Source: an uncultured Rhodospirillaceae bacterium (GTDB lineage: Bacteria > Pseudomonadota > Alphaproteobacteria > Rhodospirillales > Rhodospirillaceae). From it: a stretch of DNA of 64,000 bases. Position 1 is the first letter of the stretch, and every line of letters begins with the position of its first letter. A program made the translations under genes and the position numbers. The stretch lies in NCBI GenBank assembly GCA_943787205.1, contig CALSLN010000012.1:189-64188 (forward strand), read 5' to 3'. Under the pieces are notes generated by a model. The model searched no databases and was not told the origin of the DNA. It saw only the letters and a program-made list of their open reading frames with translations. Positions 33,974 through 43,686 of the stretch are shown here, one piece after another.

Positions 33974-35759
33974 CTAATACACGCGAGCTTTCGGCTCGAT
34001 GTACGCAACATCTTCAGACAGGGTGTACGTGTGGACTGGTCGATAATCGAGATCGATAGACCAGTCTTCTTTCAAGTACGCCAGCGTATGCTTCATCCAG
34101 TTCTCATCATCGCGATCTGGATAATCTTCATGAGCATGAGCGCCGCGGCTTTCATGCCGTGCTTCAGCACCAACGATGGTGGATAGGGCACAGGCCATCA
34201 AATTTTCGAGCTCAAGCGCTTCGATGAGATCCGTATTAAAGATGAGGCTGCGATCAGAGACCTTAAGGTCGGAAATAGATTTCGCAATCGCATCCAACTT
34301 ATCGCAACCTTCCTTGAGCGTCTTGGACGTCCGGAAGACCGCCGCATCGTTCTGCATCGCGTGCTGCATCTTGCCGCGAATTTCAGAGGTCGTTGATCCA
34401 CCGTCGGCATTGCGCGTTTTATCAAGGCGGCCCAATGCATAATCAGCAGAGTCTTTAGGGAGGTCTGGCAGAGGCGCGCCCGGTTTCATGATGTCTGCAC
34501 ATCGCAAAGCGGCCGCGCGGCCAAAGACGACGATGTCTAACAGCGAGTTAGTGCCAAGACGGTTGGCCCCGTGCACGGAAACGCTGGCGCATTCCCCAAC
34601 GGCCATAAGGCCTGGCATCACCGCGTCTGGGTCGTCTGCCGTCGGGCACATGACTTCGCCGAGGTAATTGGTTGGGATGCCACCCATGTTGTAGTGAACC
34701 GTCGGCAGCACTGGAATGGGATCCTTGGTGGCATCGATGCCAGCAAAAATCTTTGCTGTTTCGGTGATGCCCGGGAGACGTTCCCACAAGACGTCCGACC
34801 CCAAGTGCTCAAGGTGGAGCAAAATATGATCGTTGTTGTTGCCGACGCCACGCTGTTCACGAATTTCCATAGTCATGGCGCGGGAGACAACATCGCGAGA
34901 CGCCAAGTCTTTCGCCGTTGGCGCATAACGCTCCATGAAGCGATCGCCTTCGGAGTTGGTAAGATACCCACCTTCGCCGCGAGCGCCCTCAGTGATCAGC
35001 ACACGCCGCACCGTACACACCCGTCGGGTGGAACTGAACAAACTCCATGTCCTGAAGCGGCAAGCCTGCGCGTGCAACCATGGCATTGCCGTCGCCCGTA
35101 CACGTGTGCGCAGACGTACAAGAGAAATAGGAACGCCCGTATCCGCCCGTGGCCAACACAACTTGGTTGCCGCGGAAGCGATGAATTTCACCGGTGGCCA
35201 TATCGATGGCCATCACACCAACGCAACGTCCTTTGTCCATGATCAAATCAATGGCGAAGAACTCAACGAAAAACTCAGCGTTATGCTTCAAGCTCTGTTG
35301 ATAGAGCGTATGCAAAATCGCGTGGCCTGTGCGGTCAGCCGCGGCGCACGCGCGTTGCACTGGCGCTTCACCAAAGTTGCGCATGTGGCCGCCGAAAGGA
35401 CGCTGGTAAATTTTACCTTCTGGCGTACGCGAGAAGGGCACGCCGTAATGTTCCAATTCACGCACGGCGGGGATGGCCTCGCGGCACATGTACTCAATAG
35501 CGTCTTGGTCACCAAGCCAGTCCGACCCTTTAACGGTGTCGTACATGTGCCATTCCCATTTGTCTTCGGCCATATTGCCGAGTGCAGCGCCAACGCCGCC
35601 TTGCGCGGCAACGGTGTGACTGCGGGTTGGGAAAACTTTGGTGATACAGGCGGTCTTGAAGCCTTTCTCAACCATACCGAAGGTGGCACGCAATCCAGCG
35701 CCGCCGGCTCCGACAACGATAACATCGTAGTCGTGGTCAATAATGTCGTAGGCAGCCAT
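33974..35759 (-). pseudogene. sdhA: succinate dehydrogenase flavoprotein subunit, one frame break
   Basis: [15 protein letters not shown] is at the N-terminus. The junction FHPTG(V/I)YG / [13 protein letters not shown] lies near 34990-35010, between ORFs 34989-35828 and 33974-35191. Confidence 0.92.
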
Positions 35760-36549: not shown

Positions 36550-36803
36550 AATCGGCCAATGCCTTTTGTTTTCAAGGGGTTCATACCCCGGAACGGCACG
36601 GAAGTGCAGTGCGTCATTCCTACTCCCGGCCCTGCATCAAGTCAACGCAACGCGCGGTTTTGCTGGTTTTATCCAATATTCCAGAATCGGTTGCGCCCAG
36701 CCAACGGGCGCGCGACCATGCAGGCCGCTTTTCAATCAGAACGGCCATAGAAAATAGGGTTTCGGGACGATAAATGGCTCAAAACAAGGCTTTTTTACAG
36801 AGA

Positions 36804-37558
36804 ATGACGCTCCCGAGACGGGCGCTAATTGGAGGCCTCGCCAGCGCCACAGTGATTGGAAGCCCCCCTTTGCAAGCGGTGCCGATGTCGCGGATAGCTC
36901 GAATATCGTGCGAGCGATAGACGCCACCTACGACATGACCGTGATCTCGACAGGCGAAATCTTTGGACACGAGCATTGGTCACTTTATGTCCATCCAGAC
37001 GGCAGCCGGACCATCTCTGTGCGGATGATCAACAATCAATTCAATTTGTTCCGCACAATCGTCCACCGCGTCGATAAACAGTTCCGGCCTTTGGAATGTC
37101 AGTTGCTGTATTATCGTGACGGCAAAAAAATGGGATCGGCCTGGTTTCAAGTCGACGGGCACACTCTGCACGCCGAAGCTAACCTGCCGAGCGGACGATT
37201 AACGCACACAGTGGATGTGCCAGAACAGTTTTCCATGGTGAATCATGCCGCCGCCGCAGAGGGTTGGCATTTTTGGTACTGCCCGAAAGACAACGCGCCA
37301 CATCAGGCGACGCTCTATAATCTTCGAGTCGACGCGACGACATCGGAAGCCGTGCTCGGTCGTGTGCACACGCGGACCATTCAGCATCTGGGCTCGGACG
37401 ATATCGAAACACCCGCCGGGACCTTTGCCAGCGACCACTACGCATTCGGAGGCCCATCACGTATTTGGGTGCATGGCGAAGACCGCATGCCTGTGCGGTT
37501 GCGGTTTGAAGCCGCAGATACGGAATTTGTTCTTTCAAAGTGGCAGCCCATCGCCTGA
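36804..37558 (+). pseudogene. secreted protein, unknown family, paralog A of 5 (Tat-like signal peptide in a different frame)
   Basis: The ATG at 36804 encodes MTLPRRALIGGLASATVIGSPP. The body ORF 36908-37558 joins it if one C is added to the C6 run near 36863-36868. It carries the shared family motifs (see findings). Confidence 0.65.
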
Positions 37559-37585
37559 CCCTAAGATCACCTAACGAAGGACTTC

Positions 37586-38356
37586 ATGATGACAAAGTTT
37601 GTCGCAACGATCTTTACTGTAAGCACACTCCTTTGGAGCACTCTCAGCGTTGCCCAATCCGGCGACACAGACGGACCCAACGCCAACATCCTGCGGTGGG
37701 CCTCAGGCACCTACGCCTACACAACATTGAGCGACCCCCGCGACAGAGGGTGGGAACGCTTCCACATGAACGTCTACGCGGATGGGTCGCGGACCATGAA
37801 TATGTGGCATGATCTGAAAGCCCGAAGCGCGCAGTTCACCGTCATCCATCGGGTAGAGGCGAATTTCAGACCAATCGAGACCTTCGTTCCTTATTGGGTC
37901 GCCAATGGCTTTAAGGGCTCGACGCTCATTCGTATCGACGGCGACACCTTAACCGCCAGCGCCAGTGGACCGGCAGGTCAGCACGATCAAACTATACCCG
38001 TGCCTGATGTTTTTTCCGTTGGCACCCACCCCGTATCAGCCGACGGTTGGCACTTGTGGTCTGACAACGGTGAATCCGGGGTCGATCAATCCTCGAAAAT
38101 CTACAGCATGGAAGCATCGGCCGACGTCACCAAACCGCCCTTGGGGACGGTTAGAGACTTAGCCTTCAAACGCATCGGCGAAGAAACGATCACGGTTCCC
38201 GCAGGAACTTTCGACACCATTCATTACGATCTATCGGGCAGTCAGGTTTGGATTACCAAGGAAGATCGCTTGATGGTTCGCATGATCAATGAACGCTTTG
38301 ATCGCGATTACGTCCTCACGGAATTCGACAACGAAAATTACGGAGAAGCACGATGA
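37586..38356 (+). CDS. secreted protein, unknown family, paralog B of 5
   Basis: Signal peptide MMTKFVATIFTVSTLLWSTLSVA. Motifs: NILRW, DGSRT, HRVEANFRPIE, VPDVFSV..HP, WHLW, PAGTFDTIHY, YVLT. Confidence 0.8.
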   Translation: MMTKFVATIFTVSTLLWSTLSVAQSGDTDGPNANILRWASGTYAYTTLSDPRDRGWERFHMNVYADGSRTMNMWHDLKARSAQFTVIHRVEANFRPIETFVPYWVANGFKGSTLIRIDGDTLTASASGPAGQHDQTIPVPDVFSVGTHPVSADGWHLWSDNGESGVDQSSKIYSMEASADVTKPPLGTVRDLAFKRIGEETITVPAGTFDTIHYDLSGSQVWITKEDRLMVRMINERFDRDYVLTEFDNENYGEAR

Positions 38357-39111
38357 AATTGGGGGCGCTATCGAAAACCGTCTTCGCAACATACGCGGTT
38401 CTTTTTTCGGGGACTGCATTCGCTGCGGAGCTTGGGCAAAACCCCAACGTCACGCGTTGGAGTGAAGGCACCATCGTCTATCGCACCATCGAGACCCAAA
38501 GGGTGCGCGCCCATGAGTCGTGGCGCCTGACGGCTCACCCCGATGGATCGCGAACCATTCGATCGTTTGTCGACAATTTCGATGCAGAATCTCAACTCAA
38601 CATGATCCATCGGGTGGCCAAAGATTTCCGCCCCCTGGAGAGCCTGGTGACCTACTGGAGCAAGGGAAACTATAGGGGCTCCGGAATGTTCTCGGTCGAC
38701 GGACCGACCCTGACTGCGACCTTGAGTGGCCCACAGGGCCCGCTGATGGAAACAGTTGATGTGCCAGAGAAATTTTCCATGGTGCCGCATCCCCTGGCTA
38801 CCGATAGCTGGCACACCTGGTACTTTGATAAAGCAAAAGGCGGGGCCCAAACGACAACCCTTTACAATGTGCAAATTGCAGCGCCGAGCGACACGCCTGC
38901 CCTAGGCCGTCTTGAAAATGGCACGATGACGTTTGAGGGCGTGGAAGAGGTGACTGTTCCAGCCGGCACGTTTACGACGGACCACTACACGATGAATGAT
39001 AGCATTCACATTTGGGTTAGTGGCCCAGACAATATGATGGTGCGATACGCCATGCCGACTCGCGATCTAGAATATGTACTGACTTCTTTAAAAACCGGAG
39101 CGACCAAATGA
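38353..39111 (+). CDS. secreted protein, unknown family, paralog C of 5
   Basis: The start overlaps the upstream stop (ATGA). The signal peptide ends in AFA. Motifs: NVTRW, HPDGSRT, HRVAKDFRPLE, VPEKFSMVPHP, WHTWY, PAGTFTTDHY, YVLT. Confidence 0.8.
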   Translation: MKLGALSKTVFATYAVLFSGTAFAAELGQNPNVTRWSEGTIVYRTIETQRVRAHESWRLTAHPDGSRTIRSFVDNFDAESQLNMIHRVAKDFRPLESLVTYWSKGNYRGSGMFSVDGPTLTATLSGPQGPLMETVDVPEKFSMVPHPLATDSWHTWYFDKAKGGAQTTTLYNVQIAAPSDTPALGRLENGTMTFEGVEEVTVPAGTFTTDHYTMNDSIHIWVSGPDNMMVRYAMPTRDLEYVLTSLKTGATK

Positions 39112-39842
39112 TCTATAGAATTTTCGCGCTCGCGGTTTTGCTTGGTGGCTTTGGCTCATTTGGCGCACAGGCAGACAACGCAAACATCGTTCGTACAGCG
39201 ACAGGCGAATACAGTTACATCAACCAGGACACCGATGAAATCGTTGGCCACGAAAATTGGTCGCTGTTGATTGATCGGGATGGCAGCCGGACATTTACCA
39301 TTGCACAACGATGGGATGAACGAGATTACGTCACACGAACCATCCTTCGCCTTGACGCCAATCTGCGACCCATTGAAACCTACCAAACACGATGGGATGA
39401 CAAAGGCTGGGCGTCTTCCGGTGTTTACACTGTCGTGGAAAACACCGTCACTGCCGTCGTAACGGGCAGAGGAGGCCGCGCAACACAGACCCTCGAAGTC
39501 CCTGAAGCTTTTTCGATGGTCCCGCACCCTCTAACGACGGACGGTCTCCATTTTTGGTACGTCGACGCGCCCGTCGGCGAGACCATTAAAGGCACGGTCT
39601 ACAACATCAGAAAAAGAGACGAACTCTCCGGCGGAGTCCTCGGCGTTGTGCACACGGTAGATCTCACATTCCTCGGTGAAGACTCCCTAACGACCGAAGC
39701 CGGGACCTTTGACACCAAACATTTTAAGATGGGCGAAGATTCAGATTTCTGGATCGATGCGCGCGATGGAGTTTTGGTGCGACTCAGCTACGGACCGGAA
39801 GGCACCCGTTACGACCTGACCGCCTATGAACGGAGCGACTGA
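39108..39842 (+). CDS. secreted protein, unknown family, paralog D of 5
   Basis: ATGA overlap with paralog C. The signal peptide ends in GAQA. Motifs: NIVRT, DGSRT, LRLDANLRPIE, VPEAFSMVPHP, LHFWY, EAGTFDTKHF. Confidence 0.8.
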   Translation: MIYRIFALAVLLGGFGSFGAQADNANIVRTATGEYSYINQDTDEIVGHENWSLLIDRDGSRTFTIAQRWDERDYVTRTILRLDANLRPIETYQTRWDDKGWASSGVYTVVENTVTAVVTGRGGRATQTLEVPEAFSMVPHPLTTDGLHFWYVDAPVGETIKGTVYNIRKRDELSGGVLGVVHTVDLTFLGEDSLTTEAGTFDTKHFKMGEDSDFWIDARDGVLVRLSYGPEGTRYDLTAYERSD

Positions 39843-39843
39843 T

Positions 39844-40572
39844 ATGAAAATTCTTACCAGCTTATGTCTACTCTCGTTCTCTCTACAAACTGCTTGGGCA
39901 GCAGACAACGTCAACATCACCCGGTGGGCCAAAGGGACCATTGAATACAGGTCGCTCTCAACAGGCGAAGTCTCTGGGTCCGAAGACTGGCATATGACTG
40001 TCCACCCCGACGGCTCGCGTACCATGGCTGCCCGAAACCGGCTTGATCAGGCAGGGTTTCAACGACACGTCACATACCGTGTGGCGGAAAATTTTCGGCC
40101 CTTGGAAGTGACGTCTGTCTACTGGGTCAAAGGTGAGTGGCGAGGGACCGGGCTATTTTCTATCACCGGCAACCAATTGGACGCATTCGTCAAAACTCCA
40201 GACGGACTCATACGACAATCGCGCACCGTTCCTGAGAATTTTTCGATGATTCCGCACCCGCTTTCGACCAACGCTTGGAACAGCTGGTACTACGACAAAG
40301 CCAAGGGCGGACCGCAAACCGTGACCGTGTACGACATGGATGCCGGGGCCCAAGCGGTAAGCTCAATGCTGGGGAAGGTGTACGACCAAACCATAGCGTT
40401 CATTGGCGAGGAAGAAATGACCACACCAGCCGGAACGTTTACGGTCGACCATTGGCGCGTTGAAGATATCGTCGACCTCTACGTCACTGGGCCAGACGCT
40501 TTGATGGTCCGGTTCCAATGGATTCCTGCCGATCGGGACTACGTTTTGACGTCTCTTGAAACGGGCTCGTGA
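39844..40572 (+). CDS. secreted protein, unknown family, paralog E of 5
   Basis: Starts 1 nt after the paralog D stop. Signal peptide MKILTSLCLLSFSLQTAWA. Motifs: NITRW, HPDGSRT, YRVAENFRPLE, VPENFSMIPHP, PAGTFTVDHW, YVLTS. Confidence 0.8.
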   Translation: MKILTSLCLLSFSLQTAWAADNVNITRWAKGTIEYRSLSTGEVSGSEDWHMTVHPDGSRTMAARNRLDQAGFQRHVTYRVAENFRPLEVTSVYWVKGEWRGTGLFSITGNQLDAFVKTPDGLIRQSRTVPENFSMIPHPLSTNAWNSWYYDKAKGGPQTVTVYDMDAGAQAVSSMLGKVYDQTIAFIGEEEMTTPAGTFTVDHWRVEDIVDLYVTGPDALMVRFQWIPADRDYVLTSLETGS

Positions 40573-40708: not shown

Positions 40709-41905
40709 ATGACTGACGCCGTTGACCACGATCTCAAAGTCAAACACACAAAAGACGAAGCCTCGCGACAAAACTTTGTCGCCGGAATGCGCGGATACGT
40801 TCTGAACGACTTATCCGGTCACATGAAAACTGTGTGGGATCGCAAGGTCGAGCCTGCCTTTGAGAAAGCCAATGGTCGAGCACCAAGCGACGGTCCAGAA
40901 ATTCACAAGACCATCAAATCTGAAACCATCTTCAAATTTTACTCCGCGATGCGGTGCAACACTCAAGAGATGGTATGGCGCTCTGTCATGCCAGCCGTTG
41001 AGCGTGAAGGCCGGGATTTATCTCGGCGCGCACAAGTCTTGAGTCAGGCCGGTGACAAAGCGCAAGGAACCGTCGAGACGAATCCTAACTTCGAAGTGCC
41101 GCGCTATGTGTCTGAACTCGATGTTCACATGATGCCCGGCAACTATCATGAAGAACGCATCGACTATGACGTGACGCAGGGTGCCGTGTTCGACAACGGG
41201 CTAGCCGTTTTCTCATTCGGATTGCTCGGCGACCGAATGGAAGACATTACGGATTCCGTTTCGACATTTTATCAAGCTCACTACCCAGACTCGAAGCCAA
41301 AGAAAATTCTCGACCTCGGATGCACCCTCGGTCACTCAACGCTGCCTTGGAAGGCACGTTACCCTGACGCCGAGGTGCACGGTGTTGATGTCGGCGGACC
41401 TTGTGTGCGCTATGCCCATGCCCGAGCGCAATCATATGGCGTCGATGCGCACTTCCATCAAATGGATGCCGAGCATACGGACTTTGAAGATGAATCTTTC
41501 GACATCGTTTACTCGTGCATGTTCCTGCATGAAGTGCCGCTCAAAAATATCAAAGGTGTTTTCAAAGAAGCCCATCGTCTTTTGAAACCAGGCGGCGTGA
41601 TGCTGCATTACGAGCTGCCACCGAATACGATGACGTCGCCCTATGACGGCTTCTACTTGGACTGGGATTCTTATTACAACAAAGAGCCGTTCTATAAGGC
41701 ATTCCGTGATGCAGATGCGAAAGCGGAAATTGAAGATGCCGGGTTTGAGAAAGACAGCTTCTTTGAGCATGTCGCTCCCAGCCGCAACCTTTATGGCCAC
41801 GACGCCCTCATGGAAGCCGCGCAACAAGACGGCGCGAAAAACGATAGCCGTGTTGGCCGCTTCGGTGATGGTGTGATGTGGTACTTCTTCGGAGCGCGCA
41901 AATAA
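40709..41905 (+). CDS. class I SAM-dependent methyltransferase with a roughly 190-aa N-terminal extension
   Basis: Motif I ILDLGCTLGHST, an acidic post-I residue (HGVDVG) and LLKPGGVML. The N-terminal half matches nothing I recognise. AGAGGGG lies upstream. Confidence 0.75.
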   Translation: MTDAVDHDLKVKHTKDEASRQNFVAGMRGYVLNDLSGHMKTVWDRKVEPAFEKANGRAPSDGPEIHKTIKSETIFKFYSAMRCNTQEMVWRSVMPAVEREGRDLSRRAQVLSQAGDKAQGTVETNPNFEVPRYVSELDVHMMPGNYHEERIDYDVTQGAVFDNGLAVFSFGLLGDRMEDITDSVSTFYQAHYPDSKPKKILDLGCTLGHSTLPWKARYPDAEVHGVDVGGPCVRYAHARAQSYGVDAHFHQMDAEHTDFEDESFDIVYSCMFLHEVPLKNIKGVFKEAHRLLKPGGVMLHYELPPNTMTSPYDGFYLDWDSYYNKEPFYKAFRDADAKAEIEDAGFEKDSFFEHVAPSRNLYGHDALMEAAQQDGAKNDSRVGRFGDGVMWYFFGARK

Positions 41906-42261
41906 TGCCAGACGATTCAGCTAACGCTGAGAGCACACCGCTCCGGTACAGCGTAAAAGGCAAACGCATGCGATTTTTCGACGCACAAGGCGTCGACGAG
42001 CTCGTAGCAATTTGCATGGGCATGGCGCAAGAAATGTGGGTCATAAAAGAACGACAAGCGGCGCTGGAGTCCGTTGCCGCCGAAAAGGGTGTCGTGCTCC
42101 CCGATGACATTGAGGGTCACGCCTTCTCTCCAGATCAACGCGCAGCGCTAGATGCGGAGAAACAGGGTTTTATTGACCGCATCTTCTTTACGCTACGGGA
42201 AGAGGCAGAATCGCTCGCGGCTGAGCCCGAAGAAGAGCCCCCTGCGCCATCCATGCCGTAA
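41905..42261 (+). CDS. small acidic protein (118 aa), unknown function
   Basis: The ATG overlaps the methyltransferase stop (TAATG), implying translational coupling. The C-terminus is Glu/Pro-rich. Confidence 0.55.
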   Translation: MPDDSANAESTPLRYSVKGKRMRFFDAQGVDELVAICMGMAQEMWVIKERQAALESVAAEKGVVLPDDIEGHAFSPDQRAALDAEKQGFIDRIFFTLREEAESLAAEPEEEPPAPSMP

Positions 42262-42303: not shown

Positions 42304-43686
42304 GTGACTGATCACGCGCATGTAGAGGGAGGTACACCGGCTCCATCAAAATTATCGGTTCCATTCCAACTTGGGTTTGGGGCGGGCCAAATCGGCGGCT
42401 CAATTCTCGCTAACACCCCAGCACTGATCCTGCTGTTTTTCATGACCGACGTTTTGGCCATTCCACCTGCATTGGCTGGACTCGCTGTTTTTATTCCAAA
42501 GATCTGGGTCATCGTTTTTGATCCTCTGATGGGGCGCATCTCAGACCACACCAATAGTCGTTGGGGACGCCGACGCCCCTACCTCCTAGCTGGTGCCCTG
42601 GGTTGCGGGGCGGGATTCTATTTTCTCTTTGATGTTCCCACCCTCGATACCGTTACGGCACGGTTCATCTACATGACGGTCATGTTCACCCTGGTCTCGA
42701 CCGCGTTCTCCATATTCTCGGTCCCCTATTTGGCAAAAGCTGGTGAGTTGGCGCCAGACTACAAAGGCCGCACGACAATCATGGCGTACCGCATGGCCTT
42801 TCAATCAATTGGGATTCTGATCGGCATCGGCCTCGTCCAATACTTGGTGCTATGGGGCGGTGGCGGATTGGCTGGGTACACTTTTATGGGCGCCGTTCTT
42901 AGCGTTATCTGCATGGTGACAATGTTGTCGCCCTTCTTCGCTTCCCGCAACGTCCCAACCGAAGCCGCAGTCGTGACACGGATTCCATTTCGTGAGCAAA
43001 TGCGGACAGCGCTGGACAACAAGCCCTACCTTATTATTGCCGCGGCGGTGATGCTCTATTGGGTTGCAGCAAGCTGTGTCTACGCCGGACTTCCGTACAT
43101 GTTCACGTATATCGTGCAGGGATCACCGGGCCTGTTTTTCGACCTCGCGCTCTACATGACCATTGCGGCGTTTGTTGCCATTCCTGGTTGGACATGGCTG
43201 GCCGGCCGAATCGGTAAAAAGCCGACCTATTATATTTCCACTCTCGCCTATTGCCTGACCGTGTTGTCGTGGATTCCAGCCGCGCCAAATGAGGATTTTC
43301 TTATCGTCCTGCGGGGAATTTTTATCGGCTTAACCAACACAGGCCTGCTCATGACGGCCGTTGCCATGCTGCCTGACACCATAGAATACGACCGCATCAA
43401 AACAGGGCTGCGGCGTGAAGGCATCTTCTCGGGGTTTTGGATGGCGATCGAAAAAGGCGGCAACGCTATGGGCGCTCTTGTTGTGGGATTGGTGCTATCG
43501 CTTATGGGTTTTGTGGAGTCGTCAGGCGGCGCACCCGTGGAGCAAACCGATGCCGCGATCACAGGAATTTTGATCGCTTTCTCAGGCGTTCCCGTCCTGC
43601 TGATGCTCGCAGGCCTGATTATATTGAAAGCCTATCGCTTAGACGAGGACAGCCTGCAGGCTATGAAAGATGCCGCAAAGCCCTAG
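42304..43686 (+). CDS. MFS transporter, glycoside-pentoside-hexuronide (GPH):cation symporter family
   Basis: About 12 TM segments, and the GPH signature loop DPLMGRISDHTNSRWGRRRPYLL after TM2. Confidence 0.8.
   Translation: MTDHAHVEGGTPAPSKLSVPFQLGFGAGQIGGSILANTPALILLFFMTDVLAIPPALAGLAVFIPKIWVIVFDPLMGRISDHTNSRWGRRRPYLLAGALGCGAGFYFLFDVPTLDTVTARFIYMTVMFTLVSTAFSIFSVPYLAKAGELAPDYKGRTTIMAYRMAFQSIGILIGIGLVQYLVLWGGGGLAGYTFMGAVLSVICMVTMLSPFFASRNVPTEAAVVTRIPFREQMRTALDNKPYLIIAAAVMLYWVAASCVYAGLPYMFTYIVQGSPGLFFDLALYMTIAAFVAIPGWTWLAGRIGKKPTYYISTLAYCLTVLSWIPAAPNEDFLIVLRGIFIGLTNTGLLMTAVAMLPDTIEYDRIKTGLRREGIFSGFWMAIEKGGNAMGALVVGLVLSLMGFVESSGGAPVEQTDAAITGILIAFSGVPVLLMLAGLIILKAYRLDEDSLQAMKDAAKP

What the first reader, a model, noticed from the sequence alone, without database searches (positions are those of the whole stretch)
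36804..40572. Five tandem, translationally coupled paralogs of an unrecognised secreted protein family
Five consecutive plus-strand ORFs (36804-37558, 37586-38356, 38353-39111, 39108-39842, 39844-40572) each encode a protein of roughly 240-256 aa with an N-terminal signal peptide. Paralog A has a Tat-like PRRALIGG signal; B-E have Sec-like signals. All five share the same ordered motifs: N[IV]xR[WTA], ExW, DGSRT, [HYL]R[VL]xxx[FL]RP[LI]E, VP[ED]xFS[MV]xxH, [WL][HN]xW, LG, [PE]AGTFxxxH[YFW], VR and [YF][VD]L[TS]. These include two invariant His. The copies look only about one-third identical by eye (not computed), so this is an old, maintained expansion rather than a recent duplication. ATGA overlaps at 38353 and 39108 and a 1-nt spacer at 39843 imply coupled translation, which would fit either a hetero-oligomer or a graded set of binders or enzymes. 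I cannot place the family in any characterised fold. Candidate roles, all speculative, are periplasmic ligand-binding barrels, jelly-roll glycan-active enzymes feeding the downstream GPH symporter, or a periplasmic immunity-protein array.
Basis: partly seen in the sequence, partly recalled or inferred. Interest (0 to 1): 0.85.

Follow-up and report, generated by a model that had tools for sequence, protein, structure and literature searches.

The report
Tandem array of periplasmic beta-spiral proteins
Five neighbouring genes encode old, diverged copies of an exported, uncharacterised beta-barrel-like protein; it is a new sequence family within the known LolA/EipB/DUF3108-like fold group, most likely small-molecule or lipid carriers, and the first copy is broken by a one-base deletion in this sequence.

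Summary
The five paralogs are real. They are 32-47% identical to each other, share 33 invariant columns, have dN/dS of 0.06-0.13 against orthologs, and have GGAG ribosome sites with ATGA overlaps. Paralog A, however, is not an intact ORF here. A 1-nt deletion near 36870 separates its conserved twin-arginine signal (true start 36774) from the body. Relatives have an intact 261-aa gene, and sdhA nearby is also frameshifted, so a sequence error is likely.

No Pfam or NCBIfam model reaches its threshold, but the family can be placed. The AlphaFold model (pLDDT 87.6) is an all-beta "spiral/cup" with a plug helix. It is closest to Brucella EipB (DUF1849, Foldseek E 8e-7), BF2203/4FVS (DUF3108-like), PA1994, and more weakly LolA/RseB.

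The family has about 650 clusters at 50% identity, both exported and cytoplasmic. Most loci carry one copy, and five-copy arrays are the extreme. Relatives keep different subsets (C+D, B+E, A+B+E, B+C+D), which argues against an obligate five-part complex.

The commonest neighbour, also in non-syntenic loci and on a Novosphingobium plasmid, is one particular 398-aa SAM methyltransferase with a small partner protein. The GPH symporter is not a consistent neighbour.

Best guess: periplasmic ligand carriers. An enzyme role is not excluded. Jelly-roll and immunity readings are not supported.

The parts
36774..37558 (+). Paralog A. It has a twin-arginine (Tat-type) signal, MAQNKAFLQRMTLPRRALIGG... 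It is broken here by a 1-nt deletion at about 36870-36872, and the body ORF is listed as 36908-37558.
   Evidence: intact 261-aa orthologs in L005/L006 and the JGI contig; the frame-corrected gene has dN/dS 0.07; the RR motif is kept in L005_1 and L013_1.
37586..38356 (+). Paralog B, 256 aa, with a Sec-type signal (…LSVAQS|GD).
   Evidence: (E 3e-68 to the family HMM).
38353..39111 (+). Paralog C, 252 aa, with a Sec-type signal. Its start overlaps the B stop (ATGA). This is the protein that was modelled.
   Evidence: AF2 pLDDT 87.6, pTM 0.80; Foldseek: 6ntr, 3fzx, 2h1t.
39108..39842 (+). Paralog D, 244 aa, with a Sec-type signal and an ATGA overlap with C. It is the copy closest to Pfam DUF6134 (24.6 bits, below the 27.9 cut-off).
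39844..40572 (+). Paralog E, 242 aa, with a Sec-type signal. It starts 1 nt after the D stop. An alternative ATG at 39826 lacks an SD.
   Evidence: The ortholog in L005 is called at the equivalent start.
40709..41905 (+). Cytoplasmic class I SAM methyltransferase with a long N-terminal helical hairpin. It is the most consistent neighbour of the family.
   Evidence: generic small-molecule MT fold. (co-occurrence, including non-syntenic loci and Novosphingobium pSA1).
41905..42261 (+). Small 118-aa protein with no family assignment. It is a conserved partner of the methyltransferase.
   Evidence: no hits. (always next to the MT, with or without the array).
42304..43686 (+). GPH/MFS_2 cation symporter. 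It is present in the window's close relatives only.
   Evidence: It is absent in the syntenic loci L017, L019, L023-L025.

Best explanation
The five genes encode soluble periplasmic proteins of about 220 residues after signal cleavage. Each folds into an open beta-barrel or 'beta-spiral cup' closed by a short helix, the architecture of EipB, PA1994 and the DUF3108-like proteins, and more loosely of LolA/LolB/RseB.

I propose that they are ligand-binding carriers. Each copy would hold a small hydrophobic or amphipathic molecule in the lumen. The shared polar constellation (invariant Glu in 'ExW', His before the plug helix, second His after 'AGTF', several Arg) would recognise a common head-group. 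The divergent remainder would tune specificity, so the array would be a set of related binders rather than one complex.

They are probably co-transcribed with a cytoplasmic small-molecule SAM methyltransferase and its small partner, and here with a GPH symporter. This suggests that the periplasmic proteins handle the substrate or product of that methyltransferase on the other side of the inner membrane. Whether the direction is uptake or export is unresolved.

Shown: paralogy, purifying selection, signal sequences, predicted fold, structural neighbours, gene linkage.
Inferred: export, ligand binding, link to the methyltransferase chemistry, operon structure.
For: Fold: the AF2 model is confident (pLDDT 87.6, pTM 0.80), with about 15 strands plus one helix at 148-155. 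Foldseek hits are EipB/DUF1849 6ntr (E 8e-7, TM 0.52-0.57), 3fzx, 2h1t, then LolA3, RseB and LolA. The family profile hits 4fvs and 3fzx through the shared 'TVPAGTF' hairpin. There are repeated sub-threshold Pfam hits to DUF3108/DUF6134 in the paralogs and in 9 of 61 diverse members. EipB is a monomeric periplasmic cup with a mostly hydrophobic, solvent-accessible lumen sized for a small ligand (bioRxiv 10.1101/551135).

Export: Sec-type or twin-arginine signals are present in all array members of all relatives examined.

Independent function of copies: relatives keep C+D (L001), B+C+D (L008), A+B+E (L013) or B+E (L015), and there is a decayed E remnant in L001. Fifty of 69 dereplicated groups have a single copy.

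Linkage: a full-length homolog of the same MT lies within 1.5 kb in 16 of 69 groups. It lies within 5 kb in 7 of 53 groups not linked to sdh. It also lies next to a cytoplasmic member on Novosphingobium pSA1. No terminator-like site lies in the 137-nt gap between E and the MT.

Uptake-type context elsewhere: exported singletons sit directly after TonB-dependent receptors (L014, L016, L020). They also sit inside an IclR / flavin reductase / FAD monooxygenase / Amdase-like / aldehyde dehydrogenase operon (L034-L038, L041).
Against: No ligand is known for any close structural relative (EipB, PA1994, BF2203), so 'carrier' is carried over from fold and cavity, not from biochemistry. Strong conservation of charged residues across 33%-identical paralogs and across cytoplasmic members (Glu55 and His146 in C numbering are nearly invariant in 61 diverse sequences) is at least as typical of enzymes as of carriers. 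MFS transporters are not known to use periplasmic binding proteins, and the symporter is not consistently linked. I could not obtain model coordinates, so placing the invariant residues in the lumen rests only on strand periodicity (E55 shares a face with W57 and L59). The MT plus small-partner module also occurs widely without the family. Neighbour statistics rest on my own crude ORF calling.
Confidence: 0.4

Rival explanations
1. They are cofactor-independent (or metal-dependent) periplasmic enzymes built on a beta-barrel scaffold. An invariant Glu/His pair acts in acid-base catalysis or metal binding. The paralogs act on a series of related substrates from the same pathway as the methyltransferase.
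For: Thirty-three invariant columns among the paralogs are dominated by E, D, H, R, S, T, N, W and Y. Glu55 and His146 are nearly invariant across exported and cytoplasmic members. Cytoplasmic members sit among catabolic enzymes: hydantoinase A/B, alpha/beta-hydrolases, FAD oxidases, SDRs, aldehyde dehydrogenases. The Tat signal on A is compatible with a cofactor loaded before export. From general knowledge, there is precedent for barrel enzymes with LolA-like or lipocalin-like folds (VioE, allene oxide cyclase, AbyU/PyrI4).
Against: No hit to any enzyme family by sequence or fold. Many conserved motifs lie in hairpin turns (DGSRT, RPxE, PAGTF) and could be structural; PAGTF is shared with DUF3108-like proteins of unknown function. 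The second His is not conserved outside the exported clade.
Confidence: 0.3
2. They are envelope-homeostasis factors like Brucella EipB or LolA/LolB. They would chaperone lipoproteins, lipids or LPS-related molecules across the periplasm, and their position next to the methyltransferase would be inherited synteny without functional meaning.
For: The best structural match is EipB, a periplasmic protein needed for envelope integrity in an alphaproteobacterium. Weaker matches are to LolA3, RseB and LolA. The array lies in a housekeeping neighbourhood next to sdhCDAB in 16 dereplicated groups.
Against: No Pfam DUF1849 or LolA hit even at E<=1. The conserved EipB disulfide is absent, and mature C has no Cys at all. 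Copy number varies from 1 to 5 and the family is patchy (27 word-search hits, about 650 clusters at 50% identity), unlike a core envelope function. Many members are cytoplasmic. MT linkage recurs in non-syntenic loci.
Confidence: 0.15
3. The five proteins assemble into one hetero-oligomeric periplasmic complex, and translational coupling sets the stoichiometry.
For: ATGA overlaps and 1-nt spacing. One Tat-signal copy among Sec copies could in principle reflect special assembly.
Against: Related genomes retain different subsets (C+D; B+E; A+B+E; B+C+D), and most genomes have a single copy. EipB is a monomer. The gap between A and B is 27 nt, so they are not coupled by overlap.
Confidence: 0.05
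4. The array is a periplasmic immunity-protein array against an antibacterial toxin.
For: The only support is the general pattern of tandem exported paralogs.
Against: There is no toxin, T6SS, CDI or bacteriocin gene in the window neighbourhood or in 16 syntenic groups. The position between sdhC and the MT is stable. There is strong purifying selection with conserved polar motifs rather than diversification. PADLOC and toxin libraries were not searched.
Confidence: 0.02

Closest known systems
EipB (DUF1849, PF08904), Brucella abortus, PDB 6NTR
   Same: It is a periplasmic, soluble alphaproteobacterial protein of about 250 residues without a lipobox, and a 14-strand open beta-spiral 'cup' closed by a helix. 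It is the best Foldseek match to the model of paralog C (E 8e-7, prob 1.0, TM 0.52-0.57). Its biochemical function is also unknown.
   Different: Sequence identity is only 11-12%, and there is no Pfam DUF1849 hit at E<=1. The conserved EipB disulfide C69-C278 has no counterpart. EipB is a single-copy gene linked genetically to ttpA, not a tandem array next to a methyltransferase. RMSD is 5-6.6 Å, so the match is at fold level only.
DUF3108 / DUF3108_like (PF11306, PF21347): BF2203 (PDB 3FZX, 'YmcC-like fold') and BDI lipoprotein (PDB 4FVS)
   Same: These are the only families or structures reached by sequence. The family profile hits 4fvs (E 0.0077) and 3fzx (E 0.018) through the 'T(V/T)PAG(T/A)F' hairpin. 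3fzx is also a Foldseek hit (E 2.7e-4). Nine of 61 diverse members give sub-threshold DUF3108 hits (best 2e-5).
   Different: All five paralogs score below the gathering cut-offs (best 16.9 and 14.7 bits against 26). TM-score to 3fzx is only 0.31-0.36. DUF3108 proteins are mostly Bacteroidota or Proteobacteria lipoproteins, and their function is unknown.
DUF6134 (PF19630)
   Same: It is the best single Pfam score: paralog D, E 3e-5, 24.6 bits, covering profile positions 48-180 of 184.
   Different: The score is below the cut-off (27.9). The other paralogs score 12.6 bits or nothing. The family is uncharacterised.
PA1994 (DUF1089), PDB 2H1T
   Same: It is a beta-spiral with a helix plug (Foldseek E 3.5e-4, TMt 0.48-0.57). 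It is cytoplasmic, like the signal-less branch of this family.
   Different: There is no sequence similarity, it is shorter (186 aa), and its function is unknown.
LolA/LolB/RseB/LppX-type lipid and lipoprotein carriers
   Same: They are periplasmic, with a curved antiparallel sheet around a helical plug and a hydrophobic cavity that carries acyl chains. They are the functional model for the carrier hypothesis.
   Different: Structural matches are only weak (E 0.003-0.05, TM 0.2-0.33) and there are no sequence hits. The strongly conserved charged motifs of this family are not a feature of LolA-type carriers (from my own knowledge).

Membership tests
Pfam DUF6134 (PF19630) | Score at or above the curated gathering threshold (27.9 bits) | tested here: not met
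   Best is paralog D at 24.6 bits (E 3e-5). C scores 12.6 bits, and A, B and E give no hit. Two of 61 diverse members hit at E<0.01.
Pfam DUF3108 (PF11306) / DUF3108_like (PF21347) | Score at or above the gathering threshold (26 / 27 bits) | tested here: not met
   D scores 16.9 bits and B 14.7 / 12.7 bits. Nine and 4 of 61 members hit at E<0.01, best 2.1e-5.
DUF3108-like structural group (3FZX, 4FVS) | Shared C-terminal 'PAGTF' beta-hairpin and overall barrel fold | tested here: inconclusive
   The motif aligns in profile-to-PDB searches (E 0.0077 and 0.018). Foldseek to 3fzx gives E 2.7e-4 but TM 0.31-0.36.
DUF1849 / EipB | Sequence-profile match to PF08904 | tested here: not met
   No hit at E<=1 for any paralog.
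DUF1849 / EipB | 14-strand periplasmic beta-spiral cup with a helix plug | tested here: met
   The AF2 model has about 15 strands and one internal helix. Foldseek gives 6ntr as top hit, E 8e-7, TM 0.52-0.57. This is a prediction, not a solved structure.
DUF1849 / EipB | Conserved disulfide (C69-C278) that contributes to stability | tested here: not met
   There is no conserved Cys column among the five, and mature C contains no Cys.
LolA/LolB (lipoprotein carriers) | Sequence or strong structural match to the LolA/LolB fold; binding of lipoprotein acyl chains | tested here: not met
   There are no Pfam or NCBIfam hits. Foldseek gives E 0.02-0.05 and TM 0.25-0.33. Ligand binding is not testable here.
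Tat-exported proteins (paralog A only) | Twin-arginine motif (RRxΦΦ) before a mildly hydrophobic h-region and an AxA-type site, conserved in orthologs | tested here: met
   LPRRALIGG in the window, LPRRAVLGG in L005, SSRRRLVLG in L013. No TatP or SignalP run was possible, and export itself is not testable here.
Sec-exported soluble periplasmic proteins (B-E) | N-terminal basic residue, hydrophobic core, small-x-small cleavage site, no lipobox Cys | tested here: met
   The sequences show these features. A hydrophobic N-terminal segment is present in 102 of 176 family proteins. This was judged by eye and a Kyte-Doolittle window, not by SignalP.
   No such hit appears in Pfam, NCBIfam, PDB sequence or Foldseek searches. 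CAZy/dbCAN was not available.

The most novel reading that the evidence does not exclude
This family is a previously unrecognised class of periplasmic (and cytoplasmic) beta-spiral proteins that works with a specific, widespread methyltransferase module. It would act either as substrate-capture or substrate-presenting proteins for secondary and TonB-dependent transport, or as cofactor-less Glu/His enzymes. Birth-and-death tandem arrays (1 to 5 copies, one copy switched to Tat export) would diversify specificity. If so, it would give the first biochemical function for the EipB/DUF3108/DUF6134 fold group.
Probability: 0.2. Interest if true: 0.65.

Novelty: new variant of a known kind. Interest (0 to 1): 0.4.

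Why it matters
The EipB/DUF1849, DUF3108, DUF6134 and PA1994 group is a sizeable set of envelope and cytoplasmic beta-spiral proteins, and none has a known ligand or reaction. This branch adds three things the characterised members lack:
- A set of strongly conserved polar residues that can be mutated.
- A recurrent genetic partner (one methyltransferase family plus a small protein), which narrows the chemistry.
- Natural copy-number variation, with orthologous subsets that can be compared.

It also has one cultured carrier (Eilatimonas milleporae DSM 25217) and a Novosphingobium megaplasmid copy, so experiments are possible.

By itself the finding is a new uncharacterised family in a known fold group, not a new kind of system. 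The practical lesson is that the first ORF is frameshifted in this sequence.

Tried and rejected
- **Direct family assignment.** Pfam and NCBIfam gave only sub-threshold DUF3108/DUF6134 hits.
- **PDB by sequence.** With the 5-sequence profile nothing was significant. With 61 sequences there were only weak 4fvs/3fzx hits.
- **Names from the large protein databases.** All 27 close homologs are 'hypothetical protein' with no Pfam domain.
- **Function from the methyltransferase.** PDB sequence search, an AF2 model (pLDDT 91.4) and Foldseek return only generic small-molecule class I MTs (phosphoethanolamine N-MTs, RebM, NovO and others). There is no match for the N-terminal helical hairpin. Database names are 'class I SAM-dependent methyltransferase' or 'UbiE'.
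- **The small partner protein.** No Pfam, NCBIfam or PDB hit.
- **DUF1838, a recurrent neighbour.** No solved relative and no functional literature.
- **Literature on DUF3108, DUF6134, DUF1849 and EipB.** Only the EipB paper is informative, and there is no later biochemical function.
- **The search for related loci with the 61-sequence alignment.** This failed because no conserved stretch was found; I repeated it with the 30-sequence alignment.
- **Annotation of the Novosphingobium hit.** The record carries no gene table, so ORFs were scanned by hand.
- **Promoter and terminator scan.** Counts were not above shuffled expectation, so there is no usable operon boundary evidence beyond the absence of a terminator in the E-MT gap.
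- **Rfam scan of the window.** No hits.
- **Rejected readings.** These were the jelly-roll enzyme, the immunity array, the obligate five-part complex, and the symporter as an obligatory partner. Reasons are given under the rival explanations.
- **Not possible.** I could not map invariant residues onto the model, because no coordinates are returned.

Full report
**1. What is in the sequence**

Between the divergently transcribed sdhCDAB genes and a methyltransferase gene there are five consecutive + strand reading frames of one family.

B (37586-38356), C (38353-39111), D (39108-39842) and E (39844-40572) are intact. B/C and C/D overlap by ATGA. D and E are separated by one base. Each start is preceded by GGAG at 8-12 nt. 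An alternative start for E at 39826 has no such site.

36804-37558 is 755 nt. The frame of ATG 36804 ends at about 36918, and the conserved body is in another frame, with the listed ORF starting at 36908. Alignment with the intact 261-aa orthologs of two related contigs places a single-base deletion at about 36870-36872, next to a C6/T3 run inside the signal-peptide region. It also shows the true start at ATG 36774. A 96%-identical JGI contig also has a 261-aa first gene.

In the same 20 kb, sdhA is split by a one-base insertion at about 35005, while all relatives have an intact 594-aa gene. Two frameshifts in 22 genes, one of them in a core TCA-cycle enzyme with 97-99% identity on both sides, point to sequence errors rather than biology. 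I cannot prove this without reads.

**2. The paralogy is real and old**

- The five proteins align end to end with 33 invariant columns, two His among them.
- Pairwise identity is 32-47%.
- Against orthologs in L005, dN/dS is 0.06-0.13 for all five, including frame-corrected A (dS is near saturation, so the values are approximate).
- A rough NJ tree and best-hit analysis show B-, C- and E-type clades shared between the window's marine relatives and freshwater Rhodospirillaceae MAGs. A and D types occur only in close relatives.

Relatives keep different subsets. L001 has C+D plus a frame-broken 60-residue remnant of E. L008 has B+C+D, L013 has A+B+E, and L015 has B+E. L004, L005, L024 and L025 have five. 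Among 69 dereplicated groups of loci, array size is 1 in 50, 2 in 8, 3 in 4, 4 in 1 and 5 in 4. This is birth-and-death evolution of a tandem family, and it argues against an obligate five-subunit complex.

**3. Export**

B-E have short basic N-termini, hydrophobic cores and AxA-like sites, with no lipobox. A has LPRRALIGG followed by a Gly/Ala-rich h-region, and the twin-arginine motif is kept in its orthologs (LPRRAVLGG, SSRRRLVLG). These are my readings of the sequences; no SignalP or TatP run was available.

In the wider family, 102 of 176 proteins have a hydrophobic N-terminal extension. About 70 have none, some of which are fragments. The fold is therefore used on both sides of the inner membrane.

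**4. Family and fold**

No Pfam or NCBIfam model reaches its cut-off. The best scores are DUF6134 (D, 24.6 against 27.9 bits) and DUF3108 (D 16.9, B 14.7 against 26).

The word-indexed search of 5.8 billion proteins found 27 relatives, all unnamed and without Pfam domains. The exhaustive profile search found 647 clusters at 50% identity with E<=1e-3, and 136 at E<=1e-30. The family is real but modest in size. By record titles, carriers are mostly Rhodospirillaceae and other alphaproteobacterial MAGs, plus some Gammaproteobacteria and one cultured species, Eilatimonas milleporae. Novosphingobium megaplasmids also carry copies.

An AlphaFold model of C, built with a 30-sequence alignment, is confident (pLDDT 87.6, pTM 0.80). 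It is almost all beta, with about 15 strands and one internal helix at 148-155 that carries the conserved HPLxTDxWHxW motif.

Foldseek against the PDB gave these matches:

| Target | E-value | TM-score |
|---|---|---|
| Brucella EipB (DUF1849, 6NTR) | 8e-7 | 0.52-0.57 |
| BF2203 (3FZX, 'YmcC-like', DUF3108-like) | 2.7e-4 | 0.31-0.36 |
| PA1994 (2H1T) | 3.5e-4 | 0.37-0.57 |
| LolA3, RseB, LolA | 0.003-0.05 | 0.2-0.33 |

A 61-sequence profile reaches 4FVS and 3FZX by sequence through the 'TVPAGTF' hairpin. Nine of 61 diverse members give sub-threshold DUF3108 hits.

EipB is described as a monomeric periplasmic 14-strand 'beta-spiral' cup with a helix at the bottom and a largely hydrophobic, solvent-accessible lumen. 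It resembles PA1994 and LolA/LolB, is required for envelope integrity, and has no known ligand.

The family is thus a new sequence family inside a known fold group. It is not a member of DUF1849 (no profile hit, no conserved disulfide), and not of DUF3108 or DUF6134 by their curated thresholds.

**5. Context**

In 16 dereplicated groups the array lies between sdhC and a 398-aa methyltransferase, followed by a small protein of about 118 aa. The GPH/MFS_2 symporter follows only in the window's closer relatives and is missing in L017, L019 and L023-L025.

No terminator-like site lies in the 137-nt gap between E and the MT, but the scan as a whole is not above background.

The methyltransferase is a class I SAM enzyme with a long N-terminal helical hairpin. 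Sequence and fold searches return only generic small-molecule methyltransferases. Its family is large (3671 hits at E<=1e-10), and the MT plus small-protein pair also occurs without the array.

Even so, full-length homologs, N-terminal domain included, lie within 5 kb of family members in 7 of 53 groups not linked to sdh. That is 7 in about 359 kb of flanking DNA. On Novosphingobium resinovorum pSA1 a cytoplasmic family member sits between hydantoinase A/B genes and a 32%-identical homolog of the MT (E 2e-49). Without genome-wide copy numbers I cannot give a formal enrichment. For any plausible paralog number this is several-fold above chance (inference).

Other recurrent neighbours of singletons are:
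- DUF1838 (within 1.5 kb in 8 of 69 groups);
- TonB-dependent receptors directly upstream (L014, L016, L020);
- amine oxidases, alpha/beta-hydrolases and SDRs;
- a conserved operon IclR / flavin reductase / FAD monooxygenase / Amdase-like / unknown / exported family member / aldehyde dehydrogenase.

These statistics rest on my own crude ORF calling and clustering.

**6. Mechanism**

The most economical reading is that these are soluble periplasmic cup-shaped binding proteins for small hydrophobic or amphipathic molecules. The invariant polar residues would recognise a shared chemical group. The variable residues would tune specificity, and the array would provide several specificities.

They would act on the periplasmic side of a pathway whose cytoplasmic step is the linked methyltransferase. 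The direction, uptake or export, cannot be decided.

The main rival is that they are enzymes. Glu55 and His146 (C numbering) are nearly invariant even in cytoplasmic members. Glu55 shares a strand face with Trp57 and Leu59 (inference from periodicity). Many relatives sit among catabolic enzymes.

An EipB/LolA-like envelope role is possible. It fits poorly with variable copy number, patchy distribution, cytoplasmic members and the recurring MT linkage.

The hetero-oligomer, jelly-roll glycan enzyme and immunity-array ideas are not supported.

**7. Verdict**

The family is not 'unplaceable'. It is a new, uncharacterised branch of the EipB/DUF3108/DUF6134/PA1994 beta-spiral group, expanded here to the upper end of its copy-number range.

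It is worth a modest follow-up, because it offers conserved residues, a recurrent genetic partner and cultured carriers for a fold group that has no known biochemistry. It is not a new kind of system. Interest 0.4.

Noticed in passing
window 33977-35759 (- strand), break at about 35005: sdhA (succinate dehydrogenase flavoprotein) is split into two frames by a 1-nt insertion relative to intact 594-aa orthologs. Identity is 97-99% on both sides. Together with the deletion in paralog A, this suggests indel errors in the window sequence.
   Followed up: yes
L005 12294-13010 and L006 7251-7967: Two relatives, with paralog C 75% identical to the window's, carry an extra TylF-like O-methyltransferase (238 aa, PF05711/PF13578) inserted between paralog E and the 398-aa methyltransferase.
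   Followed up: no
L001 11501-11679: This is a frame-broken remnant of the last 60 residues of an E-type paralog, downstream of the two-gene (C+D) array of the GKS03 alphaproteobacterial MAG. It is direct evidence of gene loss from a larger array.
   Followed up: yes
window 40709-42261; L054-L058: The methyltransferase (long N-terminal helical hairpin plus class I SAM fold) and a small uncharacterised protein of 118-150 aa form a widespread two-gene module. The module also occurs without the beta-spiral family, for example next to Amdase-like and Cys/Met-metabolism PLP enzyme genes. Neither protein has a specific functional assignment.
   Followed up: partly
L112 (Novosphingobium resinovorum SA1 plasmid pSA1) 3387-12544: The gene order is hydantoinase B, hydantoinase A, a cytoplasmic family member (236 aa), an unknown gene, a homolog of the methyltransferase (32% identity over 340 aa), then an alpha/beta-hydrolase. 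This is an independent, cultured-organism instance of the family-methyltransferase linkage.
   Followed up: partly
L012, L014, L016, L018 (adjacent); L028, L031, L034, L035 (nearby): DUF1838, another uncharacterised family, is a recurrent direct neighbour of single-copy exported family members, sometimes together with a TonB-dependent receptor (L014, L016).
   Followed up: partly
L034-L038, L041: These loci share a conserved operon: IclR, flavin reductase, FAD_binding_3 monooxygenase, Amdase-like, an unknown 304-aa protein, an exported family member, then aldehyde dehydrogenase. L034 and L035 also carry a tandem pair of cytoplasmic family members about 7-9 kb downstream.
   Followed up: no
window paralog A (36774-37558) and its L005 ortholog: Only the A-type paralog has two Cys (in 'RPLEC' and 'FWYC'), and both are conserved in the L005 ortholog. 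It is also the only copy with a twin-arginine signal. Whether these features are linked (a cofactor or disulfide) is unknown.
   Followed up: no
window 1-64000: No Rfam family reaches its gathering score anywhere in the window. G+C rises to 0.58-0.60 at 24-28 kb, against about 0.53-0.55 elsewhere.
   Followed up: no
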